This document shows positions 31,513-53,055 of a stretch of DNA of 64,000 nt, piece after piece (the first letter of the stretch is position 1; each line of letters opens with the position of its first letter). The stretch covers positions 397 through 64,396 of the forward strand of contig JAURXY010000015.1 in the NCBI GenBank assembly GCA_030654225.1. Reading direction: 5' to 3'. Below the pieces are notes generated by a model, which was not told the DNA's origin, searched no databases, and saw only the letters and a program-made list of their open reading frames with translations. The position numbers were made by a program, and so were the translations under genes. This DNA comes from a bacterium. Its GTDB lineage: Bacteria; Patescibacteriota; Minisyncoccia; Moranbacterales; UBA2206.

Positions 31513-31522
31513 ATATAATTTT

Positions 31523-31864: not shown

Positions 31865-31893
31865 ATAATTTTTAGTAAATTTTTAGAAAACAT

Positions 31894-32655: not shown

Positions 32656-32665
32656 TTTTAATAAT

Positions 32666-33154: not shown

Positions 33155-33356
33155 AGTTTATTAAAGAATTATTTTTTTTTCGAAATTAACTCGAGCCCTA
33201 AAAATTATTACTAAAATTTTCCCTCAATCAACGGCGGTCATAGGAAAATTTTAGATAATTTTTGGACTCTCAAACAGAAATTTCTCAAAAAAGATAATTC
33301 TTTAATTATAATTTTGGCTTTTCGTAGTTTCGTTTATTTAGTAGTTCGTAAATTCT

Positions 33357-35632: not shown

Positions 35633-35638
35633 TTTCTG

Positions 35639-36391
35639 ATGGTATCAATAGTAATTGTCAATTATCGAAGTAAAATATATCTAGCTAAATGTTTATTTTC
35701 AATAAATAAATATTCTTTTAATGAAGAGTTGGAGATTATTGTGGTTAACAATGATCAGAAAGAAAAGTTGACCGAACTAGTTAATAAATATCCAAGAGTT
35801 AGATTGTATCAAAATAAAAAAAATACTGGATTTGGCGCTGCTTGTAATTTTGGAGCTCAAAAAGCTCAAGGAGAAAACATCCTCTTTCTAAATCCAGATA
35901 CTCAATTTCTGAATAACTATATAAAAGAAATTTTAATCAAAATACAGCGATATAAAGATAAAGTAATTATAATAGGTCCAAGACTAATAACTGATAAAGG
36001 GAAAACGCAAGAATGGGGCGCTGGCAAGGAAATTACTTTTACTCAAATAATAAAAAATAATCTCGGGATAATTGAAAGCCGTTCTTTATGGGAAAGTAAA
36101 CAAGACATTATGGTCGATTGGGTAAGTGGGGCGACATTGTTAATTAAAAAAAGTATTTTTGATAAATTGGGTGGCTTTGATGAAAATTTTTTTATGTATG
36201 CAGAAGATTTGGATTTATGTGTTCGAGCGAAAGACTTAAATTCAGAATTTCAAGTCTTGTATTCGCCAGAGCTAACCATTTTGCATAGCGGAGGGAAAAG
36301 TAGAGAAAGCTTAATTAAACAAAAAATTCAATTTTTTAAATCGTCTCTATATTATTTAATAAAAAGAAGAAAAAAACGAAATAAAAAATGA
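35639..36391 (+). CDS. Family 2 glycosyltransferase.
   Basis: SIVIVNYRS...IIVVNNDQ; YAEDLDLC. Confidence 0.75.
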   Translation: MVSIVIVNYRSKIYLAKCLFSINKYSFNEELEIIVVNNDQKEKLTELVNKYPRVRLYQNKKNTGFGAACNFGAQKAQGENILFLNPDTQFLNNYIKEILIKIQRYKDKVIIIGPRLITDKGKTQEWGAGKEITFTQIIKNNLGIIESRSLWESKQDIMVDWVSGATLLIKKSIFDKLGGFDENFFMYAEDLDLCVRAKDLNSEFQVLYSPELTILHSGGKSRESLIKQKIQFFKSSLYYLIKRRKKRNKK

Positions 36392-37638: not shown

Positions 37639-38779
37639 AATATTGGAAAATTTAATTTATTTGGCAGTGTTTTTTATTCCGCTTTATTTAGTGAGGATAA
37701 GAATAGGAAATTTTCCGACAAATGCTCTGGAAATAATGATCTTGGGAATTTTTTTTCTGTGGATTTTCACTGATAAGGAAAAAATAAAAGTTAGAGAGTT
37801 TTTTATTAAATATAAAAGGTATGTTATTTTTGGTACAATGATGTTTCTGGGTATTTTACTTTCAACTTTTTTTAGTGGAAACCAATTGCAATCGTGGGGC
37901 ATAATAAAAAGTTGGTTTTTGGTGCCATTGATTTTGTTTTTTCTCACTTGGAATATAATAGAAAAAGAAAAAATAAATCAAATTTTTCTAGTTTATTCTT
38001 TTTCTGCGTTTTTTGTGGCGCTAATTTCTTGTGGATATTATATTGCCAATTTTCTTACTTATGATAATCGATTAGCTGGAATATTTAACTCTCCAAATTA
38101 TCTGGCAATGTATTTGGCGCCGGCAATTATTATCTTAATTTTTCAAAAAAATAAACTCAAAATTGGCTATTTTTTGTTTTCGATTCCAATATTAGTGGCA
38201 TTATTTTTTACTTATTCTTACTCAGCTTGGTTTTCAGTCGTTGCATCGCTCATAGTGTTAGTTTTAATAAAGAATAAAAATATTTTCAAAAAAATAGCGA
38301 TAATAATAATTATTATTCTGGCACTTTTTCTTTCGCAGTTAAATAGCAAAAAATTAACAGATCTATTGTCGGCCAATCCCCGCTCATCACTGGCTTCTCG
38401 CAGGATGATTTGGCAAGCTTCAGGAAAAATGATTGAAAATAATTTTATTTTCGGTATCGGGCCGGGGAATTTTCAGCGCACATACTTAGAATATCAAAAA
38501 TTTTATCCACCCTATTTGGAATGGGCGGTACCGCATCCAAATAACTCGTATTTAACTTGGTGGCTTTATGGCGGAATGTTAGGTGCAGTTGGTTTTTTGG
38601 GCGTAGTATTTTTATTCTTGCGAGATGTCTCTATAAGGTCAAAAAAAGAGCCTAGACAGGTTCTTTTTGTAGCTTTGGGGATAATGCTAGTGATTCTAAT
38701 TCATGGAATTTTTGACACAACTTATTTCAAAAATGATTTAGCAATTATCTTTTGGTTGAATTTTTTAGTGTTGAAATAA
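37625..38779 (+). CDS. Second O-antigen ligase / polymerase-like polytopic membrane protein.
   Basis: Same architecture (YSYSAWFSVVASLIVL). Confidence 0.55.
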   Translation: MKKNKILENLIYLAVFFIPLYLVRIRIGNFPTNALEIMILGIFFLWIFTDKEKIKVREFFIKYKRYVIFGTMMFLGILLSTFFSGNQLQSWGIIKSWFLVPLILFFLTWNIIEKEKINQIFLVYSFSAFFVALISCGYYIANFLTYDNRLAGIFNSPNYLAMYLAPAIIILIFQKNKLKIGYFLFSIPILVALFFTYSYSAWFSVVASLIVLVLIKNKNIFKKIAIIIIIILALFLSQLNSKKLTDLLSANPRSSLASRRMIWQASGKMIENNFIFGIGPGNFQRTYLEYQKFYPPYLEWAVPHPNNSYLTWWLYGGMLGAVGFLGVVFLFLRDVSIRSKKEPRQVLFVALGIMLVILIHGIFDTTYFKNDLAIIFWLNFLVLK

Positions 38780-38782
38780 GTT

Positions 38783-38936
38783 TGGGGCTTGTACATTTGT
38801 CTATATCGAACGCGCTTCGGCACGAAAGTTTTTTTGTGAAATAAAATCCCGACAGTAATGCGGGATAGGCTATAGTTAATATTTTTTGCAATGCCTACGT
38901 ATGCTCTCGATATATCCAAACGTACAAGCCCCCTTA
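38783..38936. repeat. About 150-bp element bounded by an 11-bp perfect inverted repeat (GGGGCTTGTAC...GTACAAGCCCC) with an inner TATATCGA/TCGATATA pair and an internal ATCCCG...CGGGAT hairpin.
   Basis: Read directly; it lies between convergent genes. Confidence 0.5.
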
Positions 38937-38939
38937 AAA

Positions 38940-40091
38940 TTAGAGGATTATTTTGTATAATTTCTTATCTATCTTATTCACGAAGAAAAGCAAACTTTCG
39001 TCGGTATTGAGAAAAAAATCAGAAGCATCGAAGGTGCCTGAGATGTCGCTAGTTTCTACTAAGCGACTTTTTTCTCCTGTGGCTGTATCAATTTTCCAAA
39101 AAGTATCAGCAGTGGTGAATTTTCCAGTCTTATAATCATTAGGTAAAATAGAATTATCTGGAATATTTCCTGGAAGAGCGCAGAAAACTGTTTTATTGTC
39201 TTTTGACCAAACACATTTAGAAACAAATGTGGGCAAACCAAGATTTTTGTATTCTCCTCCATTATAATTCATAACGCCGAGCTGTATTTTTGTGCCACCT
39301 TTAACGTCTGTTTGACTAACTAAAACATGACTGCCTGAATTGTCCCAGAGATAATCGGCGCCAAAACTATCCTTATAGAGACTTTTAGTATCTTCACCAA
39401 GCAACGATACTGTTTGGAAAGCAGTTGGATAGTAGGCGTCGCCATTATTCCAAAAAGAAATCAGACCGGAGCGAGGAATTTGGGCAAAGGATATTTTATT
39501 ATGAGTCAAATCAAGAATTTTTTTCCAATTTTTTCCATCTGCATCAGAAACATTCAGGGAGCTTTTTTTGTTGGCAGAATCAAGATATTTATAGATTATT
39601 TTTGAAGACACTGCTTGCCAGGAAATTTCAGTGATGCTTTTGTTGAGCATAGTCAGTTGATCATTTTTAACATCAAAAAGCAAAAAATAACTTTCTATGG
39701 AATCTTTGTTGGTTTTCAGGAGGATTTTGGATTTATCTGGAGACCAAAATCCACTTATTAGGCTGATAATTTTTTTTTCGGTTAATTTTTTTGAAACGCT
39801 CCCGACAAGATCAGTTTCCTTTAGTTCTCCAGAAGCTCCAAAATACCAAATCTTATCACCAGTATTGGAAAGAGTTGGTGAAATAACTGGCTCATCTGAA
39901 GCGAGGGATATTTTTGCACTGGAAACAGCGGTAATTTTTGACAAATCTGGCGAGGCGGAATTGTTCAGTGGGATGATTGTTTTTTTAGGCAGTTCAGTTT
40001 TCTTGAAAGACAATGTATAAATACCCCAAAAAAGCAGGGACAAAAAAAGGATAAAAAGCGAAAAGAAAAATATTTTTTTGAGGGTGGACAT
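38940..40091 (-). CDS. Secreted or membrane-anchored hypothetical protein.
   Basis: N-terminal TM/signal; no recognisable motif. Confidence 0.5.
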   Translation of the reverse strand: MSTLKKIFFFSLFILFLSLLFWGIYTLSFKKTELPKKTIIPLNNSASPDLSKITAVSSAKISLASDEPVISPTLSNTGDKIWYFGASGELKETDLVGSVSKKLTEKKIISLISGFWSPDKSKILLKTNKDSIESYFLLFDVKNDQLTMLNKSITEISWQAVSSKIIYKYLDSANKKSSLNVSDADGKNWKKILDLTHNKISFAQIPRSGLISFWNNGDAYYPTAFQTVSLLGEDTKSLYKDSFGADYLWDNSGSHVLVSQTDVKGGTKIQLGVMNYNGGEYKNLGLPTFVSKCVWSKDNKTVFCALPGNIPDNSILPNDYKTGKFTTADTFWKIDTATGEKSRLVETSDISGTFDASDFFLNTDESLLFFVNKIDKKLYKIIL

Positions 40092-40105: not shown

Positions 40106-40747
40106 TTATGGCAATTTCTTATAATCATTATCATCAAATTTATAATGAGTGGCACCAGCTTGGTCGCAATTTTTTTTACAGGCATTTTCATCAATAACAT
40201 TTGTAGAATTTCCCACGGATGTATATTTAGAAGAAACAACTTCGAAATTGGCACAAGAGCAAGGCATGAGATCAGAGGGCTTATTAGCGGAGCTTTGGGT
40301 GGAACACTCGAATTTGTTCCAAGCTTTTCTTTCTATATTTGTAGCTTTGGGATCGGTTATAGATTCCGGATCAGCTGAAAGAATCCACATGACACTATTT
40401 ACTATAAACCAAGCCATTAGTGTGATGGTAAAGCCCATAAGACTAGTGGTGAGAAAGGCTTTGGCGTTTTTCATCATTTCTTCTGAACCGGAAGAAATGA
40501 TATACATCACTCCCGCAATGAAAATTCCCACTGCTGCGACAGTGATAAGCAGTTTCAAACCAAAAGAAACGATATTTTGTATCCCAACGATTAGATGACA
40601 AAGAGTACAGGCGCCAGTTTGGTCACCGGCTAAATCTGCATCATCTACGCTTAGTCCGCAAGGCACAATTCCAGCACTGGCCGAAAAAATTGGCAAAAAA
40701 ATTCCCACGAATAACAAAAAAACAGCGATTTTTATTTTAGTTTGCAT
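40106..40747 (-). CDS. VirB2/TrbC-like pilin-type protein with a Cys-rich C-terminal extension.
   Basis: Signal peptide, then two hydrophobic helices separated by a short charged loop, the VirB2/TrbC topology. Confidence 0.5.
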   Translation of the reverse strand: MQTKIKIAVFLLFVGIFLPIFSASAGIVPCGLSVDDADLAGDQTGACTLCHLIVGIQNIVSFGLKLLITVAAVGIFIAGVMYIISSGSEEMMKNAKAFLTTSLMGFTITLMAWFIVNSVMWILSADPESITDPKATNIERKAWNKFECSTQSSANKPSDLMPCSCANFEVVSSKYTSVGNSTNVIDENACKKNCDQAGATHYKFDDNDYKKLP

Positions 40748-40768: not shown

Positions 40769-41776
40769 TTATTGGCTTTTATATATGCCATTGCCTTTCC
40801 ATGCATAATGGATTGATTCATCTAACTCTCCAGGTTTGAAACAGCATTGAAAAGCTAGTGCATTGTTGCAGTCATTACTTTTGGCTAAAGATGGTAGTTT
40901 TCCTTCTGGTGTTTTTGATGTCCCGTAGCCACTATTATAGCCAGCAAAAATTTTTACAGGATCATTTTTATGATTAGATGTGTTATCTTTTATGTATTTA
41001 GCAGCTAATTCTATGGATAATCTATCATTAGATATTAAATCTTGACATGATCTTTTCGCGGTAGATGGTTTAATTTGCATTATTCCACAGGCCTTGTCGT
41101 CATTAGATAAAACCTTAGCTTTTGGATTTGTGCCACAAGATGATTCTAGCTCGGCTACGGTTCTTAATATTTCTTTTGAGATACCGCCAACATCATCAGG
41201 AATTAAACTTTTGCAAACAGAACTAGCGCTCGTTGCTGGTGATTTAGAGAAATCAATTGGAGTTTTTGAGGTTGGATCTGGACAAGCTTGATTATAACCA
41301 GCATATTTACTTGGTCCTGTGGTTTTATCATCAGTTCCGGTTATTGCAGATGATGGTGTGGATGTGATGCCTTGCAATGGTTTGAATTGTACCAGTTCTG
41401 GATTGATTGTGTAGAGTAAAACATAAGAAACTAGAGCTAGAATTAGTCCGGCGATGGCGTCGGTGATGATTCCTTTGGCTTTTCCGGTTTGGGAGTTGTT
41501 GCCGGCAGAAGTGAGATACATATATCCGCCAATCATAATCATAAACATTGCGGAAGTGCCAATCGCCCAAAGTCCGAATTTGTATATACTCATCAGATAG
41601 GCTGGAAAATCAGCCGGATCTTCAAATCCCGGAATTTTTTCCATTGGAACATATGTATCTGCAGCCAAGCAAAAAACAGGAATCAAATTAACCAGTAATA
41701 AAAGCAGAAAGATTATTTTTGTTTTTGTTATTTTCATTTTGTTTTTTAAAAAATGGGTGAATCTAATCTTCTTCAC
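40769..41776 (-). CDS. VirB2/TrbC-like pilin module fused to a VirB1-like lytic transglycosylase (SLT) domain.
   Basis: N-terminus: signal plus two-helix pilin topology. C-terminus: the SLT motifs ES (AELESSCG), GIMQI and AGYNSGYG. Confidence 0.6.
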   Translation of the reverse strand: MKKIRFTHFLKNKMKITKTKIIFLLLLLVNLIPVFCLAADTYVPMEKIPGFEDPADFPAYLMSIYKFGLWAIGTSAMFMIMIGGYMYLTSAGNNSQTGKAKGIITDAIAGLILALVSYVLLYTINPELVQFKPLQGITSTPSSAITGTDDKTTGPSKYAGYNQACPDPTSKTPIDFSKSPATSASSVCKSLIPDDVGGISKEILRTVAELESSCGTNPKAKVLSNDDKACGIMQIKPSTAKRSCQDLISNDRLSIELAAKYIKDNTSNHKNDPVKIFAGYNSGYGTSKTPEGKLPSLAKSNDCNNALAFQCCFKPGELDESIHYAWKGNGIYKSQ

Positions 41777-44636
41777 GATAATTAATTTGTGGAGTAAACG
41801 AGAAAACTATTTTAGTGACAAATAGGATTAGGGAAATTGTGAGAACTATTCGAAGGAGAAATGCAAGGTATGCAGGAGTGGAAGAATAGATAGTGGCGAA
41901 TATTTTTTTTGGTTTTATGCTACCTTCTTTTGTTTCGGGAGGATCTTGCATAGTGATGATGGCATCATCAGAAACTGCTTTTTCATAAAATTGGTTATAG
42001 GTGACGCCCCAAATAGCACTCAGCGCTTTTTTGACTAAATTATTTTGCGTGTAGAGTGTGCCAACTGATATGTTATAACTTTCGCCTTGTTTTTCCTTGG
42101 ACTTTAAAGTCAAGATGCCAGCATCGTCAATCTTGAATCCATACACATTGGCATTGGCAGAATTTATCGAATCACCATCAATTTCCCAGTTCAAATTTTC
42201 CGGCGAAACGGGAAATCCATTCGTGGTAGCTTGTAATTTTATTTTGGAATTAGTGTAGGCCCAAAAATTAAGGAGGCTGTAGTCAGGGAATGATTCGCCA
42301 TTAACATCAAAATATTGCCCCAAAACTGTTTGCTTGCAAACTGTTTCATCGGCTGAGCGGATGGTAATTTCTGGATCGACTACTTGAAAATTTCTGCTAA
42401 TATTTATTTTTTTACCAGCTTTATTAGTGGCAATTAGGTTCACGGCATATTGTTCGCCAACTTCTTTGAGAATTGGAAAATAGGCAACATTAATTTGTTT
42501 GTTTAAATTTTCGTCTTCTTCTCCTTCTGATTTACACCCTTCGAAAAAACAATACTGATAGGTAAAAGGCTTGCCATCGATTGTCCAGAGAAAGTCAGGA
42601 TCGGTTTTATCTTCAAAATGATCTTTTGGGACGGATATTGCGATAATTTGATTTTTGGTCACAGGGCAAAGAGCTTTTTCTATCGGATTTTGGTCATCAT
42701 TGCAAATTTCATCTCCTAGTCCAAGCTCAATCCCAGAGGGATTATCAGTAAGAGAGGCAGTAGAAGCTACAGCAGAAGCAATATACGCACCTATTTTTTC
42801 CGTAGTAGAACTAATGGGAATAATTATATCCTGAGTGCTTTTGCGAGGATAGTCTTCACCGGTGTTTTCCGTGACAGTAAGAACAACTTTGAGATATTTA
42901 TTGGAATAGGTAGTTGCATCTGTATCATGAAGGCCTAATTTGAATTTGAAAGTGTCAATTCCGAGACCAACAGATTGGGTTGATTCTAATAAATCAGCTT
43001 TCAAAAGAGGCTCTCCCCAGATATCAGAACTAATATCTAGAGCAGTATAAACCTTCCAATTATATTGTAGGTAGTTAGTGTCTTTGGCATTAGGAATGGA
43101 AGCATGAATAGAAAGTAAGTCACCATCCCCATCGATTCCAGTCGGATCATTTATAGGATTATTTGGAGAATAGGAGAGAGTAATGTCGAGTTTATTGCTT
43201 CCGGGGGTATTTTCTTGGGGGGAAACTAGTGAATCATATAGAAAATTATCTAAATCTCGTGGTGTCTTGACTTGGTCACCATCAATATCAATTTCAAAAT
43301 CATCAAAGGAAAAAATTTCTGGGGAATAGGTGATGACTGGATTGGGGGCTTCTTCAGTTTCAGCTACATCGGTGTCGCTTATCTCATTATCATCAGCATC
43401 TTTCACGACATTATGCATTGTGATAGTGGTTTTGATACTACCAACGCCATTGACAACATCACCATCTATTTCTTGAAGGGTTGTTTTGGTGAGAGTAGTA
43501 GTGTAAGTTCCATCATTAGTAGTAGAAATAATTTCATTACTTGTTTTTGGATATTCATCATCAGTAAAATCAGTGTCAAAATCACCTATTTTTTCATTCA
43601 TTGCCCATGTGGTTTTATAAGAAGAATCATCTGTTGCAGGTGGTTCAGTAGAAACTCCTTCTACAGCTACACCAACCTTGTCGCCTTTTTGGTAGCTCCA
43701 GGTGAAGCTAGTGACTCCTAAACCGACCACATTAGCTTCATCGGGATGACCTAAATTAGCTGTGTCGTTACTATTAGGATCAGTGTGCCAAAATTTTTCT
43801 TCATCTTTGCCGAAATCTTCATCGCCAGTTTCTTTTTCTAAATTGATTGTGTCTCCCTTATTATCAACAAAATTTTTATATTTAGCGATAGGGAATAAGT
43901 GGCTATTTTTTGTGTCAGTACAATCTAGCTCATATTCTTTGCCAGATTCTGTATTACGAATATAACAATGAGGAATTTTTCCTTTTTGGTCATCACCGCC
44001 AGAAGGGGCTTCATATCCGTCATTATCAAAAGATGATTTGTAAATATCATCAGAGCTTATCATAAATCCTCCCTTAGCGATAATCCTCGTGGCTTTTATC
44101 TTATAATCATCTATGTCAACTTCGCCATCTTTATTCAAATCGCATTTCTCAAAATCATCACTTGCTTTGTATTCTGCTGTGTATTTTTTTTTATCTAATT
44201 TTTCATCAAAACAATAGCTATTTTTTAGAAACCAAGTGTAGAATAGATCATTAGGATCATTCATGAAATATGTTGGTGAAGCAGTGACGGTTATTTTTTC
44301 TCCTTCATCTGGATTGGCAGGAACGAAAAAAAGCGAAACTTGGGGTCCAGTTTTTTTCTGATCTTCAAAGTTGATAATCTGAGCTTGCTCCCTAACCTTG
44401 TTTTTGTCCACACCCAAATCACTAAAAATAGAATCCATAAAGCTAGAGGGATTGCTGGATCCCATAACGCTTCCAACGGATGTGGCTTGAGCTATCCCAG
44501 CTTGAGAGAAAAGTAACAACCCAATAAGAAGAAAATTAATGGCTGGATTTATTTTTTTGAACTTTTTATTTTTCATTTTAGATGATAAATTATAAAACTG
44601 TCTAAAATTACGAGTGAGAACAAAGCAACAATCCAA
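41763..44636 (-). CDS. Large (957 aa) secreted surface protein with a C-terminal TM anchor.
   Basis: Signal peptide, Asp/Thr-rich extracellular repeats, C-terminal hydrophobic anchor. Confidence 0.55.
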   Translation of the reverse strand: MDCCFVLTRNFRQFYNLSSKMKNKKFKKINPAINFLLIGLLLFSQAGIAQATSVGSVMGSSNPSSFMDSIFSDLGVDKNKVREQAQIINFEDQKKTGPQVSLFFVPANPDEGEKITVTASPTYFMNDPNDLFYTWFLKNSYCFDEKLDKKKYTAEYKASDDFEKCDLNKDGEVDIDDYKIKATRIIAKGGFMISSDDIYKSSFDNDGYEAPSGGDDQKGKIPHCYIRNTESGKEYELDCTDTKNSHLFPIAKYKNFVDNKGDTINLEKETGDEDFGKDEEKFWHTDPNSNDTANLGHPDEANVVGLGVTSFTWSYQKGDKVGVAVEGVSTEPPATDDSSYKTTWAMNEKIGDFDTDFTDDEYPKTSNEIISTTNDGTYTTTLTKTTLQEIDGDVVNGVGSIKTTITMHNVVKDADDNEISDTDVAETEEAPNPVITYSPEIFSFDDFEIDIDGDQVKTPRDLDNFLYDSLVSPQENTPGSNKLDITLSYSPNNPINDPTGIDGDGDLLSIHASIPNAKDTNYLQYNWKVYTALDISSDIWGEPLLKADLLESTQSVGLGIDTFKFKLGLHDTDATTYSNKYLKVVLTVTENTGEDYPRKSTQDIIIPISSTTEKIGAYIASAVASTASLTDNPSGIELGLGDEICNDDQNPIEKALCPVTKNQIIAISVPKDHFEDKTDPDFLWTIDGKPFTYQYCFFEGCKSEGEEDENLNKQINVAYFPILKEVGEQYAVNLIATNKAGKKINISRNFQVVDPEITIRSADETVCKQTVLGQYFDVNGESFPDYSLLNFWAYTNSKIKLQATTNGFPVSPENLNWEIDGDSINSANANVYGFKIDDAGILTLKSKEKQGESYNISVGTLYTQNNLVKKALSAIWGVTYNQFYEKAVSDDAIITMQDPPETKEGSIKPKKIFATIYSSTPAYLAFLLRIVLTISLILFVTKIVFSFTPQINYREED

Positions 44637-45241
44637 GAATAGAATATGGAGCGACTCTTATATACTATTATACCAGAAAACAGAGAAATTACGAGAGTGG
44701 GTGTCATTTGCCAAAAAGAATTTCCGGTTGGGATAAGAATTAGTACAAAAAGAAAAAATTGCAAAAAAATTGAGAGTAGACCTATTTTTTTGGAAAAATA
44801 AAGCAAAATAAATCCACGCCAGAAAAACTCTTGGATAAAAACAAAAAGATTAGCAAGGATAAGTTCATAAAGCAGAAAAATCCAGAAATTATGCACAACA
44901 TAGGACGAAAGTAAATAGTTTTTTCGGAAATCTGTATAAGTATAGAGCATAAAAAAAGTCAAAAGGGTGGCCAAAAACAGCAATATTCCCCAGAAAATGC
45001 CAGCTTGTTTGTTGCCTAAGGTCAATCCAAAAGTGGAAATATTTTTTTTGAGAATAAATTTATAATAAAGAATTGGAACGATAATTAGAAAGAAAATATT
45101 TCGAGTGAGAAGTTGGGCGGAGTTTTGCACTGGGAAAAAAAGAGACAACAACAAACAAAAAACAATCACAAGAGAAGTTGTTGCGATTTCTTTATTTTCA
45201 ATTAGGCGAGTGGATAGTTTTTTTTTGTGATAATAGCGCAT
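44573..45241 (-). CDS. CPBP-family (CAAX-protease-like) intramembrane protein, tentative.
   Basis: Polytopic, with EFFWRG (the EExxxR-like motif 1) and a distal His. Confidence 0.35.
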   Translation of the reverse strand: MRYYHKKKLSTRLIENKEIATTSLVIVFCLLLSLFFPVQNSAQLLTRNIFFLIIVPILYYKFILKKNISTFGLTLGNKQAGIFWGILLFLATLLTFFMLYTYTDFRKNYLLSSYVVHNFWIFLLYELILANLFVFIQEFFWRGFILLYFSKKIGLLSIFLQFFLFVLILIPTGNSFWQMTPTLVISLFSGIIVYKSRSIFYSWIVALFSLVILDSFIIYHLK

Positions 45242-45955: not shown

Positions 45956-47779
45956 TTATTCTTCATTAAATTCTTTCTTGGCTCTTTCAATTTCCAGCAT
46001 TTGCGCTGGATCAGTGGTGATTATCTGGTCTTCCGAATAGGAGGCTACCACTTTAATTGCCACATGATTGGTGCCGGCGAAAAAAATTCCTTCTCCAACA
46101 TTAGATTCAAGAAGCAGAAATTTTTCTTGATCAGTAAGATAGAATGTTTCACTGATAACATCCACGGCTGCAGGCGATTGTTTCAAAAGCAGTTGAATGG
46201 AGGAATTGGTGACAATAGCTTTGCCATAGCGGGAGCTCAAAAAGTCGTTGACATCCTGAGTGACGGTGGTGAGTCCCGTATAATATTTTCGACAACGCTT
46301 AGCAATTCCAAAAAGAAAAGAAGCGGCGTCATCATATTTCATCATCACCCAAGCTTCATCAGCCAGAACTAATCTTTTTTTGAGGTTAGTGCGCATTTCA
46401 TTCCAAATAAATTGCATCACCATATACATAGCAATTGGCCTGAGTTCTTCTTCCATATCGCGAATGTTGAAAACCATCATTGGATTGTCTACCACAACAT
46501 TGGTAATGTTATTTAGAAAACCGGAAAAAATTCCTTCAGTATATTTTTCCATTCTAATGGCTAAATTTTCTCCACCATCCATACTGCGCAAAATTTGGTA
46601 TAGATCAGACATAGTTGGATAGGCTTCTTTGGTGAGAGAGTTGAAATTAGTTTCGGCGGAAATATCTCGAACAGCATATGTTTCCTTGATGGCTCGTCCA
46701 AGAATTGAATCTTCTTCTGGTGTGATGTTGCCGAGCATGATGTGGAGTAGTCCAAGAAGATTGGCAATGTTATTGCGCAATACATCTTCTGGATCTTCAT
46801 CTTCTTTGATGTGCGGAAGGTCGAAAGGATTGATGTGATTGTTAGAGTTAAGAGAGATTTTTATGAAAGTTCCGCCCACTGTGTCACAAAGATGTTTATA
46901 TTCATTTTCTGGATCAATAATAATCACATCAGTTCCCATCATAAGAGATCGAAGCACTTCCAGTTTTATAGTATAACTTTTTCCAGCGCCAGACTTGGCA
47001 AAAACAACCATATTGGCATTTTCCATTTTGAAACGATCAAAAATGATCAAGCTATTGTTATGGCGATTTATTCCATAAAGAATTCCTTCGTTGGAAGACA
47101 GTGTGGAAGAAACAAAAGGAAAAGTCGTAGAAAGCGGAGCGCTGTTCATACTAGATCCTATGTCCAGTTCATCATTGGCCAATGGCAATGTTGAATTGAA
47201 ACCTTGTTCAGATTTGAAGATAGCAGGTTTCACATAGACTAGTTGAGCTTCCAAAATAGCTTCAATTGAACGAGTGATATCAGAAAGTTCTTTTTCGTTT
47301 TCGCCGTAAGCGGTGATATAGAGTCCAAAGCGGAAAAATTTTTCTGTGCCTTGTTGCAGATTGCTTCGTAGTTCATCAATGTCTTGAATGGCAGTTTCAA
47401 GAGCGGGATCACGAATCATACCTTTTTCTTGTTCGATATGAATTTGTGATTCAACTCGGGTGGCATTTTTTTTGAGATCTTTCAAAATATCATAAGTTTC
47501 AATCGGGTGGACAAACATTGAGATATCGATTGGCAAATCGATATTAATAATTGGAGAAAACCAATTGCTATTGAGAAAGCGTGGATAAGCCACCACAAAA
47601 ATAGTTTGTGCCAATGTTTCTCCGACACGAATGAATTTTGGCATTATTTTTATCGCAGCGGGAGCCAGAAGGTCATTGAGACGCGAAACGCCTTCTTGAT
47701 AGTATTTTTCACCCTCAAGAATCTCGTTGGTTTTAACGGGCGGTTTGGGGTTGGTATTTTTTTTGAATAGGTGGAACAT
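45956..47779 (-). CDS. VirB4/TrbE-family type IV secretion ATPase (ATPase domain).
   Basis: Walker A FAKSGAGKSYT and Walker B LVLADEAWVMM, with overall VirB4 C-terminal layout. Confidence 0.8.
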   Translation of the reverse strand: MFHLFKKNTNPKPPVKTNEILEGEKYYQEGVSRLNDLLAPAAIKIMPKFIRVGETLAQTIFVVAYPRFLNSNWFSPIINIDLPIDISMFVHPIETYDILKDLKKNATRVESQIHIEQEKGMIRDPALETAIQDIDELRSNLQQGTEKFFRFGLYITAYGENEKELSDITRSIEAILEAQLVYVKPAIFKSEQGFNSTLPLANDELDIGSSMNSAPLSTTFPFVSSTLSSNEGILYGINRHNNSLIIFDRFKMENANMVVFAKSGAGKSYTIKLEVLRSLMMGTDVIIIDPENEYKHLCDTVGGTFIKISLNSNNHINPFDLPHIKEDEDPEDVLRNNIANLLGLLHIMLGNITPEEDSILGRAIKETYAVRDISAETNFNSLTKEAYPTMSDLYQILRSMDGGENLAIRMEKYTEGIFSGFLNNITNVVVDNPMMVFNIRDMEEELRPIAMYMVMQFIWNEMRTNLKKRLVLADEAWVMMKYDDAASFLFGIAKRCRKYYTGLTTVTQDVNDFLSSRYGKAIVTNSSIQLLLKQSPAAVDVISETFYLTDQEKFLLLESNVGEGIFFAGTNHVAIKVVASYSEDQIITTDPAQMLEIERAKKEFNEE

Positions 47780-47783
47780 AGAC

Positions 47784-48485
47784 TTATTGTAATTCTAATT
47801 TTTCTACATTTTTTAACTCTGACGCGTTGAAAATTTCTGGGTTGTATGAATTGAAAAGCAGTTCAATGAGTTCTTCGGTTTTGAGTGGAGCGATGCGCAA
47901 ACCAATTCCAGAAAGAGCGGCGATGATGTGATCAACTCTTTGAAGAAGTTGATTTTTGTAGGTTTCAAAATTTTCATTTTTTTCGATGATATTTTTTTGC
48001 GGATTCATTAGACTGCCAATGTTTGAGAAAAATCCCTTTTCTTTATTTTCAATGGGAGAAAATGGAATGATAATATAAAAATTCTTTTCCATAATATTGG
48101 AACCACTCACGAGTTGTTCGATGAAACTTCTATATTCAGATAATTGCAAACGAAGAAGTTCACTCGGTTGGGTTTTTTCTTTGCTCACAATGAAATCGAA
48201 ATATTTTCGCATATCTAGTTTTCGCGAGCTCACAAGTATTTGTACTGGAAAATCTACAGAGTTCAAGAAGTTTTGATATTGATTGATGATTGCTTCTTGT
48301 TCTTGGGTTGATTTCAAATCAAAGTTAATTGCCGACACAGCCAAAACAGAGCGCATAGCGCCTGATTTCAAAATAACTGTGTCATCTTTGACTTCTGCCA
48401 CATCCAGATATTTTTGAGTTGGCGAAGAGGACGGTTCGGTAGAGAGTTTTTTTGAGTGTAAAAATTCCATAGTATCAATAATCAA
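47784..48485 (-). CDS. VirB4 N-terminal-domain-like protein. It ends 4 nt before the ATPase ORF starts, so VirB4 is either split or frameshifted.
   Basis: Adjacency and combined length (233+607 aa is about the size of full VirB4). Confidence 0.45.
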   Translation of the reverse strand: MIIDTMEFLHSKKLSTEPSSSPTQKYLDVAEVKDDTVILKSGAMRSVLAVSAINFDLKSTQEQEAIINQYQNFLNSVDFPVQILVSSRKLDMRKYFDFIVSKEKTQPSELLRLQLSEYRSFIEQLVSGSNIMEKNFYIIIPFSPIENKEKGFFSNIGSLMNPQKNIIEKNENFETYKNQLLQRVDHIIAALSGIGLRIAPLKTEELIELLFNSYNPEIFNASELKNVEKLELQ

Positions 48486-48540: not shown

Positions 48541-48993
48541 TTATTGTTCATTGTTCATTGATCCTTGTTCTCTGTTTAATCTTTTTGTTAATTCTTCTAT
48601 TTTTTTATTATCTAAAACTTTTCTTTTGACAATAGTTTCTTCTTTAGGTTTTTGGATTTTCTTGTTTGCTTTCATATTATCATAATATCGTTTCCAAACA
48701 TAGACCTTAGGTTTCATAAAAAAGTTTACTCCGGACATTAGAAAGTTGAGAAGTGGTTGATTGTATGGTTTGTAGAAAGCTAGGGCGCCAAAAATTCCCA
48801 AAGTGATAATGGCTACGGGAAGAAAAGTAGAAAAAACCAAAGTACTCCAAAAAATCAAAAGCAAAACCCCGGCAATTCCAAGCCAGCCAAGTTGTTTGGC
48901 AGTGAGCGGACCGACGATCTTATCTTCGATGTCGATGAATTGTGGGACGTTAAACAACATAATCAATGAGCAATGAACAATGATCAATATCAC
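48541..48993 (-). CDS. VirB3-like small membrane protein.
   Basis: About 150 aa with two TM helices, located immediately upstream of VirB4. Confidence 0.45.
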   Translation of the reverse strand: MILIIVHCSLIMLFNVPQFIDIEDKIVGPLTAKQLGWLGIAGVLLLIFWSTLVFSTFLPVAIITLGIFGALAFYKPYNQPLLNFLMSGVNFFMKPKVYVWKRYYDNMKANKKIQKPKEETIVKRKVLDNKKIEELTKRLNREQGSMNNEQ

Positions 48994-50772: not shown

Positions 50773-53055
50773 TTAGCCCTTTTTAATTCTATCCGCTTGT
50801 GCACGTACTGGATCCATTCCTTTTCTTTCTCTTACTCTATCGGCGAATTCTCTGATTATTTTAGCTTGTTCTGGATTCGCTTTTACTGCTGGTATTTCTG
50901 GAGTTGTTGCTGTTGCTGCTACTATGGGTGTGCCAGCTTCAATTTTGTTTGCATATATATCTATAGCTTCAACTTGAGTTATTAATCCGTCAAAAAAGTC
51001 ATCTCGTACTCGATTTAATTGATCAAGAACGGCCGTATTTAGTTGCTCTAATTGAATTTCTCCAAACCTATGAAGTTTGCCAGCATTACCATCAGTATCC
51101 TGTTGAAGAAATGAATTCCAATGCCATAAGTCAGTTTTTGTTTGCGCTTTAATGTTCTTTGCTTTTCCACGAGATAATTCTATTTGTTTATCATCAGATG
51201 TTTCGGCATAATTTCCTTTTGCATCGATTGCACTCATGCCATATAATTGATAATTTCCTTTTCCATAAGCGATTTCTCCCATATCTGCAATGTGTTTGCC
51301 AGCTTCTGATTCTTGCATTCCAACTTTCTTAAGTCTTTTAAATAATTCTCTTTTTAATTCAAATGGATCCATAACAAATCCTTCTTCCTTGGAAAAAGAA
51401 TTAAATTCATTGGTTTTGGCGATAATTCTAAGCATAGCTGCCATCTTTTCTTTGTCTTTGGCTTTTTCAGCCATTTTATATTCTCCATAGATATAAGCGA
51501 AATCAGTACTCACTGCTTCGGCATCTTTTTCATGCTGAGCAACCAATGATTGAATAGCTGCTTCGCCGTGTCTGGATTGGCGGTTCATCCATTTTTTTGG
51601 ATTTACTGTCCAAAATCTATTGAGAGTATCTCTCCAATTGCCAGTTGCCGGCCCAAAAGCTTTTTTGTCCAATTCTTCTTCTCTTTGTTTCCAAGCAGTC
51701 TTTAGTGCTGTTGGACTAAGATATTGCAATGGGCGAAAGATTTTATTTTTTGATCTTCCAGTGCTAGCCAATCCTCTATCTGCTTTATGACCAAGCCATT
51801 TTGCAGTTCCCTTCATAAACCCTTGCGCTTTGCCGACGACGGCGCTTCCGGCTGAGCCACTCATTTCTTTAGCAATGCCTAAACCTATCCAGAGGATTAT
51901 AATAGGAAGGAAAAAAAAGGCAAGCGTGGCAATGTACTCTGGATCGGAGGTACTCTTATTAGCTAAGGTTTCCATATCTAAAATTCCATTTTTTTGAATT
52001 TCATTCATAAGGGAAGATGCAATATACATCATAAAAAGCATAATCGGACCAAAAAAAGAATAATCAAAAAGTTTTTTCCACCAATCGCTAGAATGTTTAG
52101 CCAGTGGCGGAACGGCAGCACCTACAAAGGCTAATGAAGAAAAAATAATTAAAACTGCCAAGGCGAGAGTGCGGATGACAAAAAGAACGGAAATAGTCAA
52201 CATAGTCACCATAAAGATGAAGACAAAAACGACCGCTGCCAAAAGACTAGCCGTATCTTTTCCTACTGCTGGATGCATTATGCCTGGCAAATTAGAAATA
52301 CTGGCAAAGCTAACAAAAGTATCTACTTTATTAGAGCCTATTTCTAGGACAGTGACAAAGTAATACATCAGCATATTAGAAGTATCAATGATGAAACGAG
52401 AAATTGGAAAACTGAAATTAACTAGAAGTGCCATAAGGACAATCTTTAAAAGTGTATTTTTGTAGTTATATTTGTCAATTTGAAAAACAGTAGCAAAAGC
52501 AGAAAAAAGCAGGAACATAATGAAAGAAACATTAAGTGCATCGCGCACCAATGCCCAACCACCATAAATAGCCTCACTACTAAGAATAGAACTGATACTA
52601 TTGGGTTCCATTATCCATTTAAAAAGAGCGCCAGCTAAAATTGTTAGCCGTACAAAAAATTCTAAAAGAGTAAGGAGGGTGCAGTCTATAGGGTCAAATA
52701 CAAAAGAACAGGAGGTGGAATTTCCAGGGTCTTTAACTACTGTTTGAGTTTTTTGATCAGTAGTGTTAGTTTTTTGATTAACTGGATTCCATATCATATC
52801 TCCACCGCCATGATTTGATTGTGATATTGTGGCTGCAGCTATACAAGCACTTTTTGTCATAGTTCCTAAATTATCATCAACTGTTAACGGTAATCCTGAG
52901 GCTGCATCAAATTCTGTGTATCGATTATAACATAAGCCAAGAGTAGTATCATCTTCCTCCGCCTCCGCCTTCTCCCCTTTCCCAAACCCAAAACCAAGCA
53001 CTAGGCAAAAAATAATTACTAATATAAATTTGGTTGTTGTTGATTTTTGTTTCAT
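50773..53055 (-). CDS. VirB6/TrbL-like polytopic membrane protein with a large C-terminal cytoplasmic domain.
   Basis: Signal peptide, extracellular Cys-containing segment, at least 6 TM helices, then a roughly 300-aa soluble tail. Confidence 0.5.
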   Translation of the reverse strand: MKQKSTTTKFILVIIFCLVLGFGFGKGEKAEAEEDDTTLGLCYNRYTEFDAASGLPLTVDDNLGTMTKSACIAAATISQSNHGGGDMIWNPVNQKTNTTDQKTQTVVKDPGNSTSCSFVFDPIDCTLLTLLEFFVRLTILAGALFKWIMEPNSISSILSSEAIYGGWALVRDALNVSFIMFLLFSAFATVFQIDKYNYKNTLLKIVLMALLVNFSFPISRFIIDTSNMLMYYFVTVLEIGSNKVDTFVSFASISNLPGIMHPAVGKDTASLLAAVVFVFIFMVTMLTISVLFVIRTLALAVLIIFSSLAFVGAAVPPLAKHSSDWWKKLFDYSFFGPIMLFMMYIASSLMNEIQKNGILDMETLANKSTSDPEYIATLAFFFLPIIILWIGLGIAKEMSGSAGSAVVGKAQGFMKGTAKWLGHKADRGLASTGRSKNKIFRPLQYLSPTALKTAWKQREEELDKKAFGPATGNWRDTLNRFWTVNPKKWMNRQSRHGEAAIQSLVAQHEKDAEAVSTDFAYIYGEYKMAEKAKDKEKMAAMLRIIAKTNEFNSFSKEEGFVMDPFELKRELFKRLKKVGMQESEAGKHIADMGEIAYGKGNYQLYGMSAIDAKGNYAETSDDKQIELSRGKAKNIKAQTKTDLWHWNSFLQQDTDGNAGKLHRFGEIQLEQLNTAVLDQLNRVRDDFFDGLITQVEAIDIYANKIEAGTPIVAATATTPEIPAVKANPEQAKIIREFADRVRERKGMDPVRAQADRIKKG

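What the first reader, a model, noticed from the sequence alone, without database searches (positions are those of the whole stretch)
40769..41776. Pilin-like module fused to a VirB1-type lytic transglycosylase
The N-terminal 130 aa have the signal-peptide-plus-two-helix topology of VirB2/TrbC pilins and are paralogous in layout to the adjacent gene 40106-40747. The C-terminal half carries the SLT catalytic motifs (E-S, GIMQ, AGYNSGYG). A covalently tethered peptidoglycan-cutting enzyme on a pilin-like membrane anchor is an unusual way to localise wall remodelling to the secretion/pilus assembly site.
Basis: partly seen in the sequence, partly recalled or inferred. Interest (0 to 1): 0.6.

Follow-up and report, generated by a model that had tools for sequence, protein, structure and literature searches.

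The report
Pilin-like hairpin fused to wall-cutting enzyme
A gene in the type IV secretion cluster of an uncultured ultrasmall (Moranbacteria-like) bacterium joins a pilin-family two-helix membrane module to a cell-wall-cutting enzyme; this is a conserved but undescribed design that may explain why these bacteria seemed to lack the usual secretion-system wall hydrolase.

Summary
Window 40769-41737 (-) (alternative GTG start at 41776) encodes a 322-aa protein with four parts:
- a signal peptide;
- a two-helix hydrophobic hairpin of the Patescibacteria "T4SS_pilin" family (PF18895);
- a disordered Ser/Thr-rich linker;
- a GH23 lytic-transglycosylase domain with the E-S, G-x-M-Q and A-x-Y-N-x-G motifs.

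The next gene (40106-40747) carries a paralogous hairpin of a second subtype. Both lie in a chromosomal monoderm-type T4SS cluster (VirB6-like, PrgI, TrsD, VirB4) about 9.5 kb from dnaA.

The design is not a one-off. In 53 related clusters, mostly Moranbacteria, the same gene slot holds hairpin+SLT in 31. In most others it holds the hairpin with SLT_3-like or Hedgehog/LAS-peptidase-like domains. The hairpin is better conserved than the enzyme domain.

Most likely this is the cluster's VirB1 equivalent: a wall hydrolase docked at the machine through a VirB2-family hairpin rather than a plain anchor. Its target (own wall or host wall), any proteolytic processing and pilus incorporation are untested.

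The link to proven VirB2 pilins is indirect. I found no paper describing the fusion. I rate it a new variant of a known kind, of moderate interest.

The parts
40769..41737 (-). CDS of the hairpin-SLT fusion protein (322 aa plus stop). The alternative GTG start at 41776 would add 13 residues.
   Evidence: ORF list. An identical 322-aa NCBI protein, P0001, and the N-termini of homologues support the ATG at 41737.
41663..41737 (-). Signal peptide (residues 1-25: MKITKTK, hydrophobic core, CLA|AD).
   Evidence: Hydropathy and charge analysis; helix 5-23 in the AF2 model. The cleavage site is inferred, not predicted by a dedicated tool.
41384..41662 (-). PF18895-type hairpin module (residues 26-118). 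It comprises an acidic N-terminal segment with Y-x-PME-x-IPG, helix 1, a basic SAGN...KAK loop, helix 2 and the INPEL end motif.
   Evidence: profile score 143 bits; AF2 helices 44-76 and 81-111. It is the most conserved part of the protein, with 64% mean identity to the window.
41303..41383 (-). Flexible Ser/Thr/Gly-rich linker (residues 119-145).
   Evidence: pLDDT below 50 for residues 120-136. Its length and sequence vary among homologues.
40772..41302 (-). GH23 (SLT) lysozyme-like catalytic domain (residues 146-322). Catalytic E198 lies at 41144-41146, GIMQ at 41075-41086 and AGYNSGYG at 40922-40945. Six Cys are conserved.
   Evidence: Pfam SLT E=1.2e-12; PDB profile hits MltC 3e-13, MltE and Slt70; Foldseek hits LtgA, Slt and MltD; invariant residues; coordinates.
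40106..40747 (-). Adjacent paralogous hairpin protein (213 aa). It has a signal peptide, a VPCG..CTLCH-type PF18895 hairpin and a roughly 90-aa Cys-rich C-terminal module.
   Evidence: Homologues in the same slot of related clusters carry other C-terminal modules.
41763..44636 (-). Conserved 957-aa secreted, C-terminally anchored protein immediately upstream. It has no Pfam hit and appears tightly coupled to the fusion gene.
   Evidence: synteny in L001, L002, L004, L005 and about 46 species loci.
44573..45241 (-). Rce1-like / CPBP intramembrane protease conserved in the cluster. It is a candidate maturation protease (inferred).
   Evidence: PF02517 E=1.1e-6. Homologues at 34-89% identity occur in nearly all VirB4-linked loci.
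45956..48485 (-). VirB4 ATPase (45956-47779, CD1110 family) preceded by the separate TrsD / TraC-like N-terminal protein (47784-48485).
   Evidence: NF045971 E=3e-107. PF26593 is annotated on the homologous gene in L001, L002, L004 and L005.
48541..48993 (-). PrgI (VirB3-like) membrane protein.
   Evidence: PF12666 E=2.5e-9.
50773..53055 (-). 760-aa polytopic membrane protein, VirB6/TrbL-like by position and by a weak TrbL_3 hit on its homologue.
   Evidence: sequence; weak TrbL_3 on the L002 homologue; conserved in the related loci.

Best explanation
The gene encodes the peptidoglycan-cleaving component of a chromosomal, monoderm-type type IV secretion system of a Moranbacteria-like Patescibacterium.

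Proposed steps (inferred unless marked as shown):
1. After Sec export and signal-peptide removal, the two hydrophobic helices insert as a hairpin. Both ends face outside and the short basic loop faces the cytoplasm. This is the topology of VirB2-family pilins.
2. The hairpin belongs to the PF18895 family, which the field treats as the VirB2-like pilins of Patescibacteria (shown). It is the best-conserved part of the protein (shown).
3. I therefore infer that it acts as a docking module. It would place the protein at the VirB6-like / PrgI / VirB4 membrane complex or in the pilin pool that feeds it, rather than acting as a passive anchor.
4. A flexible linker of about 27 residues holds a GH23 lytic-transglycosylase domain with a complete catalytic motif set on the outer face of the membrane (domain and motifs shown).
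5. From there the enzyme can cut glycan strands locally and open the wall for the secretion channel or pilus.

On this reading the protein is a covalent VirB2-VirB1 fusion. It would replace the targeting that Gram-positive systems obtain from a single-pass anchor plus binding to a VirB8-like partner.

Shown: domain architecture, catalytic motifs, predicted topology, family conservation and strict synteny.
Inferred: enzymatic activity, docking through the hairpin, and that the substrate is the cell's own wall.
For: Architecture:
- SLT domain above the Pfam cut-off.
- Catalytic E-S, GxMQ and AxYNxG motifs invariant in 51 homologues and aligned to MltC, MltE and Slt70.
- Lysozyme-like fold with lytic transglycosylases as top hits.
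- AF2 model, pLDDT 85, with helical hairpin, disordered linker and globular domain.
- Charge distribution puts the loop inside and both termini outside. Six conserved Cys in the enzyme domain fit an extracytoplasmic location.

Hairpin identity:
- All 23 hairpins hit PF18895, and 14 of 23 hit the Mycoplasma ICE 'pilin-like' model NF045849.
- In S. epibionticum, short PF18895 proteins in the T4SS locus are essential, and two of them also hit TrbC/VirB2 PF04956 (PMC10633639).

Context:
- The gene lies in a tight co-directional array with VirB6-like, PrgI, TrsD and VirB4.
- The gene order recurs in L001, L002, L004 and L005 and in about 46 species-level genomes with VirB4 at 80-99% identity.
- Every SLT-type homologue with enough contig upstream, except a 28%-identical Saccharibacteria match (L069), follows the 957-aa gene.
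- In 53 clusters the slot holds hairpin+SLT in 31, hairpin+SLT_3-like in 9 and hairpin+Hedgehog/LAS-peptidase-like in 5.
- This parallels the glycosidase-plus-peptidase pairs of PrgK and TraG, and the separate lysozyme and M15B genes next to virB4 in S. epibionticum.

Other points:
- The hairpin is more conserved than the enzyme domain (64% against 44% mean identity), which argues against a passive anchor.
- The organism makes peptidoglycan: a class A PBP lies at 21014-23578.
- VirB1 and VirB8 homologues are reported as rarely detectable near virB4 in Patescibacteria (PMC12102498).
Against: - There are no experimental data for any member of this family.
- No VirB1-specific model matched.
- The hairpin has no detectable similarity to TrbC/VirB2 PF04956 or to solved pilins. 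Its fold is generic.
- Five of 53 clusters have a first-slot hairpin gene with no C-terminal domain, and at least one (L031) has no recognisable hydrolase on either hairpin gene. A fused hydrolase is therefore not obligatory.
- The catalytic domain is swapped or diverges much faster than the core machine. For example, L024 has VirB4 at 95% identity and the hairpin at 82%, but no SLT. This fits a target outside the cell as well as, or better than, housekeeping of the cell's own wall.
- A related hairpin+SLT protein (P0089) is encoded away from any T4SS genes.
- The 'SLT' domain of PrgK proved to be a muramidase, so the chemistry cannot be read from the family name (PMC11323569).
Confidence: 0.5

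Rival explanations
1. Host-directed weapon. The hairpin is a true pilin subunit, minor or tip-proximal. It is incorporated into a VirB2-type filament or surface structure, so the tethered hydrolase is displayed outside the cell and cuts the peptidoglycan of the bacterial host to which the epibiont attaches.
For: - Both termini of the hairpin are predicted to be extracellular.
- Extra modules are attached to either the N- or the C-terminus in relatives, as expected for a display scaffold.
- The catalytic domain is exchanged among SLT, SLT_3-like, LAS-like, NlpC/P60, CHAP and C39-like types, while the hairpin and the machine stay conserved. This is the pattern of effector-like modules.
- Patescibacterial lytic transglycosylases have been proposed to compromise host envelopes (PMC11665869).
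- T4SS and pilin genes are essential for epibiotic growth in S. epibionticum (PMC10633639).
- From my own knowledge: short epitopes fused to the C-terminus of F-pilin are displayed on F pili.
Against: - No pilus has been shown for any PF18895 protein.
- A 200-aa globular domain on a helical-pilus subunit is sterically demanding.
- The 64-kb window holds no 'naked' hairpin gene to act as major subunit, and in L002 the fusion is the only hairpin gene within 10 kb either side.
- Gram-positive T4SS hydrolases that act on the donor's own wall are equally varied in their domains.
Confidence: 0.25
2. Pro-protein. The fusion is cleaved at the conserved boundary after helix 2 (INP-x-L). This would yield a mature pilin-like hairpin and a released hydrolase, analogous to VirB1 processing to VirB1* and to TrbC maturation. 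The conserved Rce1-like CPBP intramembrane protease of the cluster may be the processing enzyme.
For: - N112 and P113 are invariant and L115 is nearly invariant at the end of helix 2 in 51 homologues.
- Polyproteins exist with 3-17 tandem hairpins. In P0121 each unit ends in ILYTINPQL, and a terminal SLT domain follows.
- A CPBP/Rce1-like protease gene is conserved in essentially every VirB4-linked cluster.
Against: - It rests on motif and context only.
- The motif could simply cap the helix at the membrane surface.
- No proteomic evidence exists.
- Tandem hairpins are topologically viable without cleavage.
Confidence: 0.15
3. Ordinary housekeeping membrane-anchored lytic transglycosylase for growth and division. 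On this reading the N-terminus is a generic anchor, and it lies near T4SS genes by chance.
For: - SLT-domain proteins are ubiquitous.
- The NCBI annotation is only 'transglycosylase SLT domain-containing protein'.
- P0089 lies outside a T4SS cluster.
Against: - The hairpin is homologous to PF18895 modules and more conserved than the enzyme domain.
- The position directly after the 957-aa gene is kept in dozens of species.
- The same slot takes different hydrolase domains on the same hairpin.
Confidence: 0.05
4. Remnant of a phage lysis cassette: a holin-like two-helix segment fused to an endolysin.
For: A two-TM segment plus a lysozyme-like domain superficially resembles holin-endolysin or membrane-tethered endolysins. 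There are weak PHROG hits to T7 gp16-like and endolysin families.
Against: - PHROG hits cover only the SLT domain, and no holin family hits the hairpin.
- No phage genes flank it. The context is chromosomal, near dnaA, inside a T4SS operon.
- There is a cleavable signal peptide before the hairpin.
Confidence: 0.01

Closest known systems
PrgK (pCF10), TraG (pIP501) and CwlT (ICEBs1): membrane-associated peptidoglycan hydrolases of Gram-positive conjugative T4SSs
   Same: - All are T4SS-encoded, extracytoplasmic wall hydrolases held at the membrane of a monoderm cell.
- They carry an SLT/lysozyme-like glycosidase, paired in the system with a peptidase activity.
- They are needed to get the channel through the wall (PMC11323569; reference list of PMC12102498).
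   Different: - PrgK has a cytoplasmic domain, one transmembrane helix and three hydrolase-type domains in one chain. It is targeted through PrgL, a VirB8-like protein.
- Here a cleaved signal peptide and a conserved PF18895 two-helix hairpin carry a single catalytic domain.
- In related clusters, second hydrolase-type domains sit on separate hairpin proteins.
- Sequence similarity is limited to the GH23 core.
VirB1 of Agrobacterium and the specialised lytic transglycosylases of diderm T4SS/T3SS (P19, IpgF, EtgA)
   Same: - GH23 family-1 fold and motifs.
- Encoded in the secretion-system operon.
- The presumed role is local wall opening.
- EtgA is a PDB sequence hit of the family profile at E=6e-7.
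- From my own knowledge: VirB1 and its processed VirB1* fragment promote T-pilus formation. This functional link between VirB1 and VirB2 is mirrored here by a covalent fusion.
   Different: - VirB1 is a soluble periplasmic protein without a pilin-like module.
- No VirB1-specific NCBIfam model matches this protein.
- The host here is a monoderm.
PF18895 'T4SS_pilin' proteins of Patescibacteria (for example the essential pilin array SEML1_0014-0019 of Southlakia epibionticum)
   Same: - Signal peptide, two hydrophobic helices and a short loop.
- Encoded beside virB4, prgI and a virB6-like gene.
- The same Pfam family (PMC10633639; PMC12102498).
   Different: - Those are short proteins (about 100-185 aa) without catalytic domains. 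In that organism the lysozyme and M15B-peptidase homologues are separate genes.
- Here the hydrolase is fused to the hairpin.
FlgJ of the flagellum, and the EscI-EtgA pair of the T3SS: a structural or assembly module coupled to a wall hydrolase
   Same: The logic is the same. A peptidoglycan-cleaving domain is tied, covalently in FlgJ and by binding in EscI-EtgA, to a component of the axial structure that has to cross the wall. PDB 8urn is an engineered EscI-EtgA fusion that appears among the sequence hits. The rest is from my own knowledge.
   Different: These are unrelated machines with different structural modules. They are periplasmic rather than membrane-embedded.
Phage T7 gp16 and other virion-borne lytic transglycosylases
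   Same: They carry a GH23 domain on a protein that is part of a DNA/protein translocation device and acts on the target cell's wall (hits).
   Different: They lack the hairpin, are delivered from a virion, and match here only weakly.

Membership tests
GH23 family-1 lytic transglycosylase (Pfam SLT, PF01464) | Profile match above the curated threshold | tested here: met
   47.9 bits against a cut-off of 21.3, E=1.2e-12, residues 198-297 of the 335-aa form.
GH23 family-1 lytic transglycosylase (Pfam SLT, PF01464) | Catalytic Glu in an E-S motif, plus the G-L-M-Q and A-Y-N-x-G motifs | tested here: met
   E198-S199, GIMQ 218-221 and AGYNSG 265-270. E198, Q221, Y267 and N268 are invariant in 51 homologues. 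They align to QIESS / GLMQ / AYNGG of MltC, whose aligned Glu I count as E217.
GH23 family-1 lytic transglycosylase (Pfam SLT, PF01464) | Lysozyme-like alpha-helical fold | tested here: met
   AF2 pLDDT is mostly above 90 in residues 140-322. Foldseek top hits are LtgA, Slt, MltD and MltF, probability 0.97-1.0, best E=6e-4.
GH23 family-1 lytic transglycosylase (Pfam SLT, PF01464) | Product is 1,6-anhydro-MurNAc (a true lytic transglycosylase rather than a muramidase) | not testable with these tools
   This needs a muropeptide analysis. The 'SLT' domain of PrgK proved to be a muramidase (PMC11323569).
VirB1 (T4SS-specialised lytic transglycosylase) | Match to a VirB1-specific sequence model | tested here: not met
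   No NCBIfam family at E<=0.1. The CONJScan VirB1, TrsG and CD419 profiles were not available.
VirB1 (T4SS-specialised lytic transglycosylase) | Encoded within a T4SS gene cluster | tested here: met
   It lies in the same strand array as VirB6-like, PrgI, TrsD and VirB4. The synteny is kept in dozens of genomes.
VirB1 (T4SS-specialised lytic transglycosylase) | Needed for assembly or function of the T4SS or pilus | not testable with these tools
   There is no genetic system for this lineage.
PF18895 T4SS_pilin (VirB2-like proteins of Patescibacteria) | Profile match | tested here: inconclusive
   This protein scores 21.4 bits (24.1 for the hairpin alone) against a cut-off of 26.6. Relatives of the same hairpin reach 34.5 bits. 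Matches were 23 of 23 at E<=1 and 94 of 107 at E<=1e-3.
PF18895 T4SS_pilin (VirB2-like proteins of Patescibacteria) | Signal peptide, then two hydrophobic helices joined by a short basic loop, with both termini outside | tested here: met
   AF2 helices 44-76 and 81-111. The loop has 2 Lys and no acidic residues; the segment after the signal peptide has a net charge of -4.
PF18895 T4SS_pilin (VirB2-like proteins of Patescibacteria) | Small stand-alone protein (about 100-185 aa) | tested here: not met
   The protein is 322 aa, with a 200-aa enzyme domain after the hairpin. Among the 107 closest representatives, 89 also have at least 100 aa after the hairpin.
TrbC/VirB2 conjugative pilins (PF04956 and solved pilins) | Sequence similarity to PF04956 or to experimentally solved conjugative pilins | tested here: not met
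   None of 23 hairpins hit PF04956 at E<=1. The profile search of PDB sequences found no pilin, only spurious repeat proteins. The only link is indirect: two S. epibionticum PF18895 pilins also hit PF04956.
TrbC/VirB2 conjugative pilins (PF04956 and solved pilins) | Pilin fold | tested here: inconclusive
   The hairpin model has no hit at E<=1e-3 and no pilin in the top 50. With the full-length model the A. pernix conjugation pilus appears only at E=4. A helical hairpin is not diagnostic.
TrbC/VirB2 conjugative pilins (PF04956 and solved pilins) | Polymerises into an extracellular filament | not testable with these tools
   No pilus has been demonstrated for any Patescibacteria T4SS (PMC12857230).
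Gram-positive T4SS hydrolases of the PrgK/TraG type | Single-pass membrane anchor with two or more hydrolase-type domains in one polypeptide | tested here: not met
   Here there is a cleaved signal peptide, a two-helix hairpin and one catalytic domain. Peptidase-like domains occur on separate hairpin proteins in relatives.

The most novel reading that the evidence does not exclude
The PF18895 hairpins of this clade may be polymerisable or processable carrier units rather than mere anchors. On this reading the T4SS of these epibionts builds a short pilus or stalk whose subunits arrive with enzymes attached: a glycosidase on one hairpin and a LAS-type peptidase on the next. The enzymes would either be displayed on the structure to drill through the host's cell wall, or be released at its base by the cluster's conserved CPBP/Rce1-like intramembrane protease cutting at the INP-x-L boundary. 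Tandem-hairpin polyproteins ending in an SLT domain would be the extreme form of the same design. This would be a new principle for T4SS pili, and a direct mechanism for how ultrasmall bacteria breach their hosts.
Probability: 0.2. Interest if true: 0.85.

Novelty: new variant of a known kind. Interest (0 to 1): 0.55.

Why it matters
The Patescibacteria T4SS is essential for epibiotic growth in the one species tested. Its function is unknown, and its VirB2-like 'pilins' are the feature that sets it apart from all other monoderm systems (PMC10633639, PMC12857230).

[quoted passage not shown] This finding suggests that in a whole order-level lineage the wall hydrolase is not missing. It is fused to a VirB2-family hairpin, often in forms too divergent for VirB1 profiles.

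Three consequences follow:
- It links two components that are separately essential in Saccharibacteria through a Rosetta-stone fusion.
- It shows that part of the 'pilin' repertoire consists of enzyme carriers.
- It gives concrete constructs for biochemistry (SLT residues 146-322 and an E198Q variant) and for testing whether the target is the epibiont's own wall or the host's.

Tried and rejected
- Single-sequence search of PDB sequences with the whole protein found nothing.
- The hairpin profile against PDB sequences gave only spurious hits to designed 'Pizza' repeat proteins, from summed tiny repeat matches, and no pilin.
- Foldseek with the isolated hairpin model gave only generic helical hairpins (CnrX, coiled coils) at E>1, so the fold cannot settle pilin identity.
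- tblastn against 72,556 plasmids found no match, so this is not a typical plasmid-borne T4SS part.
- PHROGs gave no holin-like hit for the hairpin, and the neighbouring genes had no phage hits, so I rejected the phage-lysis-cassette idea.
- Single-sequence PDB searches for the two unknown C-terminal domain types seen in relatives gave nothing. Only profiles reached the Hedgehog/LAS fold: E=5e-4 for one type and a marginal 0.08 for the other.
- Literature searches for the Pfam accessions and for VirB2/lysozyme/fusion terms found no description of the fusion. The supplement of PMC12102498 lists each protein under one label only.
- I considered a recent tandem duplication of the two hairpin genes and rejected it. 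They are 26% identical and belong to two subtypes, each widespread.
Full report
**What is there**

The minus strand of the window carries one uninterrupted ORF, 40769..41776, 335 aa from a GTG. An identical NCBI protein, "MAG: transglycosylase SLT domain-containing protein", is 322 aa. It and most of its 150-odd relatives begin at the internal ATG at 41737. I use the 322-aa numbering throughout.

The gene is packed between co-directional neighbours. The 957-aa gene upstream ends at 41763. The 213-aa gene downstream starts 21 nt after the stop, and the next gene starts 14 nt after that.

**The C-terminal half is a lytic-transglycosylase-type domain**

- Pfam SLT (PF01464) matches at E=1.2e-12, well above its cut-off.
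- In an alignment of 51 full-length homologues, E198, Q221, Y267 and N268 are invariant. S199, G218, M220 and A265 are nearly so, and six cysteines are conserved.
- A profile of that alignment finds MltC (3e-13), MltE, Slt70, T7 gp16, EtgA, MltF and goose lysozyme among solved structures. The family's ES, GLMQ and AYNxG motifs sit on the corresponding motifs of MltC.
- An AlphaFold2 model built on the alignment has mean pLDDT 85 and a confident globular domain from about residue 140.
- Its best Foldseek matches in the PDB are the lytic transglycosylases LtgA, Slt, MltD and MltF.
- Window coordinates of the motifs are given.
- Whether the enzyme makes anhydro-muropeptides or acts as a muramidase cannot be told from sequence. 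The "SLT" domain of PrgK turned out to be a muramidase (PMC11323569).

**The N-terminal third is a signal peptide plus a conserved two-helix hairpin**

- Residues 1-25 have a Lys-rich start, a hydrophobic core and CLA|AD.
- Residues 26-43 are acidic and contain the conserved Y-x-PME-x-IPG motif.
- Helices 44-76 and 81-111 are joined by the basic SAGN...KAK loop. Helix 2 ends in an invariant INP-x-L motif.
- By the positive-inside rule the loop is cytoplasmic and both ends of the hairpin, and therefore the enzyme domain, are outside.
- A disordered Ser/Thr-rich linker, residues 119-145, follows.

For this protein alone the PF18895 (T4SS_pilin) match is below threshold. Every one of 23 related hairpins hits PF18895, best E=8.5e-9. 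Fourteen of them also hit NF045849, the "pilin-like" protein of Mycoplasma ICEs. None hits TrbC/VirB2 PF04956.

A hairpin profile finds no solved pilin by sequence. The isolated hairpin model has only generic helical-hairpin neighbours.

The label "pilin-like" therefore rests on three things: membership of a predicted family, the topology and the genomic context. There is also one indirect link. In Southlakia epibionticum two of the essential PF18895 proteins also match PF04956.

**The neighbouring gene**

Gene 40106-40747 encodes a signal peptide, a hairpin of a second PF18895 subtype (VPCG...CTLCH) and a Cys-rich extension of about 90 aa. Its N-terminal 117 residues align with the target at 26% identity, E=1e-8. 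These two are the only hairpin modules in the 64-kb window. Both subtypes are widespread, and each is found fused to SLT domains somewhere (P0052 and P0089). This is old paralogy, not a recent duplication.

**Context**

The window is chromosomal DNA of about 35% G+C. It carries dnaA (29825-31255), dnaN, ruvB and a class A penicillin-binding protein.

The target lies in a minus-strand array in this order:
- a 760-aa polytopic protein, VirB6/TrbL-like by its homologue;
- a 453-aa protein;
- PrgI (VirB3-like);
- a TrsD / TraC-like protein;
- VirB4 of the CD1110 family (E=3e-107);
- a 166-aa membrane protein;
- an Rce1-like CPBP protease;
- the 957-aa protein;
- the target;
- the second hairpin gene;
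- a 383-aa protein.

No coupling protein or relaxase was seen among the cluster genes and other large ORFs scanned. This matches the published description of the Patescibacteria T4SS. That description covers its monoderm MPF-FATA ancestry, PF18895 "VirB2-like" genes near virB4, a position near dnaA, rnpA and ksgA, and a general absence of relaxases (PMC12102498).

**Conservation and modularity**

The same gene order is found around four homologues from metagenomes. A scan of species-representative genomes returned 72 loci, almost all labelled Moranbacteria, Moraniibacteriota or Parcubacteria. In about 46 of them the hairpin gene directly follows a 957-aa homologue, with VirB4 at 80-99% identity.

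Classifying 53 such clusters, the first hairpin gene is:

| First hairpin gene | Clusters |
|---|---|
| hairpin+SLT | 31 |
| hairpin+SLT_3-like | 9 |
| hairpin plus one of two further domain types | 5 |
| hairpin plus an unidentified C-terminal domain | 3 |
| hairpin only, or with N-terminal Cys-rich modules | 5 |

The second hairpin gene often carries one of the two further domain types. Profiles of those two types find the Hedgehog N-terminal domain, with its H...D...H zinc site aligned, at E=5e-4 and 0.08. This points to a LAS/M15-type peptidase fold, firmly for one type and marginally for the other.

A search of 1.84 billion representative proteins with the hairpin profile gives 74,757 hits at E<=1e-3. 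Among the 107 best single-hairpin hits, 89 have at least 100 residues after the hairpin. The recognisable domains are all wall hydrolases: SLT 20, SLT_3 10, NlpC/P60 3, and CHAP, destabilase and C39-like once each.

Within the SLT-type family the hairpin is more conserved than the enzyme domain, 64% against 44% mean identity to the window. Close relatives can differ in the cargo. L024 has VirB4 at 95% and the hairpin at 82% identity. Its first hairpin protein has no enzyme domain, and its second carries the LAS-like one.

**Most likely function**

I conclude that the protein is the wall-cleaving component of this T4SS. In effect it is a covalent fusion of a VirB2-family hairpin to a VirB1-type activity.

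Gram-positive systems anchor their hydrolases with a single helix and target them through a VirB8-like partner; PrgK binding PrgL is the example (PMC11323569). VirB8 and VirB1 homologues are rarely detectable in Patescibacteria (PMC12102498). A hairpin that can enter the pilin-binding sites of the membrane complex would give the same localisation.

The architecture, motifs, topology and synteny are shown. Docking through the hairpin, enzymatic activity and the choice of substrate are inferred. I give this reading about 0.5.

**Rivals**

- Display on a pilus or surface structure to attack the host's wall, about 0.25. This is favoured by the fast exchange of catalytic domains and by modules attached to either terminus. 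It is disfavoured by the absence of any demonstrated pilus and of a "naked" hairpin gene in the window or in L002.
- A pro-protein cleaved at the INP-x-L boundary, perhaps by the conserved CPBP protease, about 0.15. This is suggested by polyproteins of 3-17 tandem hairpins, one of which (P0121) ends in an SLT domain.
- A housekeeping transglycosylase, 0.05, is poorly supported.
- A phage lysis remnant, 0.01, is also poorly supported.

**Novelty**

Membrane-held T4SS wall hydrolases are well known, and PF18895 proteins are known. The consecutive Pfam families T4SS_pilin (PF18895) and SLT_3 (PF18896) co-occur in the same proteins.

I found no paper that describes a VirB2-like/hydrolase fusion or draws the consequence. 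The main survey instead inferred that the putative pilus needs no VirB1.

I class the finding as a new variant of a known kind, with moderate interest (0.55). Interest would be much higher if the enzyme-armed-pilus or processing models prove right.

Noticed in passing
window 44573-45241 (-): An Rce1-like / CPBP intramembrane protease (PF02517, E=1.1e-6) sits inside the T4SS cluster. It is conserved at the same position (34-89% identity) in nearly all VirB4-linked related loci, including an uncalled ORF in L002 at 6617-7285. It may be a maturation protease for the hairpin proteins.
   Followed up: partly
window 40106-40747 (-), C-terminal ~90 aa; L024 5737-6288; L031 5491-6282: A small Cys-rich module (C-x-C, about 22-26 residues, C-x3-C, 6-8 residues, then Y/H-Y) is attached C-terminally to the neighbour's hairpin here. 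In close relatives it is N-terminal to the first-slot hairpin, once in L024 and twice in L031. It has no Pfam hit and its function is unknown.
   Followed up: partly
P0121 (612 aa), P0137 (352 aa), P0131 (1775 aa, 17 matched stretches): Some proteins are made of 3-17 tandem PF18895-type hairpins. P0121 has four hairpins, each ending in ILYTINPQL, followed by an SLT domain. They could be polyproteins, covalent oligomers or gene-calling artefacts.
   Followed up: partly
L001 11077-11955; L024 6302-7186; alignments A4 and A5: In related clusters, hairpin proteins carry C-terminal domains whose profiles match the Hedgehog N-terminal (LAS/DD-peptidase-like) zinc site (E=5e-4 and 0.08). No Pfam family detects them.
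   Followed up: partly
window 41763-44636 (-): A 957-aa protein with an N-terminal signal sequence and a C-terminal hydrophobic anchor has no Pfam, NCBIfam or PHROG hit. It is always directly upstream of the hairpin-hydrolase gene, and its stop overlaps or abuts that gene's start.
   Followed up: no
window 45956-48485 (-): VirB4 is encoded as two genes: a 233-aa TrsD / TraC-like protein and a 607-aa ATPase. The split is the same in all related loci examined.
   Followed up: partly
window 48990-49382 (-) and 53158-53541 (-): Two small genes are inserted between T4SS genes: a 23S rRNA intervening-sequence protein (PF05635) and a PD-(D/E)XK nuclease family protein (PF13366). The first is also present in L002, but absent from L001, L004 and L005.
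   Followed up: no
window 29825-40091: The T4SS cluster lies about 9.5 kb from dnaA. ORFs corresponding by position and size to the polysaccharide-synthesis, glycosyltransferase, two Wzy_C-type, R3H and YidC genes of L001, L002 and L005 lie between. This matches the origin-proximal placement reported for Patescibacteria T4SSs.
   Followed up: partly
L022, L026, L035, L039, L043, L047, L049, L053, L067 (record titles): MAGs titled 'uncultured Bdellovibrionales' (and L042, titled 'Oscillospiraceae') carry the hairpin gene. Most of the Bdellovibrionales-titled ones also carry the Moranbacteria-type T4SS cluster, with VirB4 at about 67-83% identity to the window. The taxonomic labels are probably wrong.
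   Followed up: no
L003 10001-11203 (P0089): A protein with the neighbour-type hairpin (VPCG..CTLCH) and an SLT domain is encoded between lepA and ligA, away from any T4SS genes. Not all hairpin-hydrolase fusions are cluster-bound.
   Followed up: no
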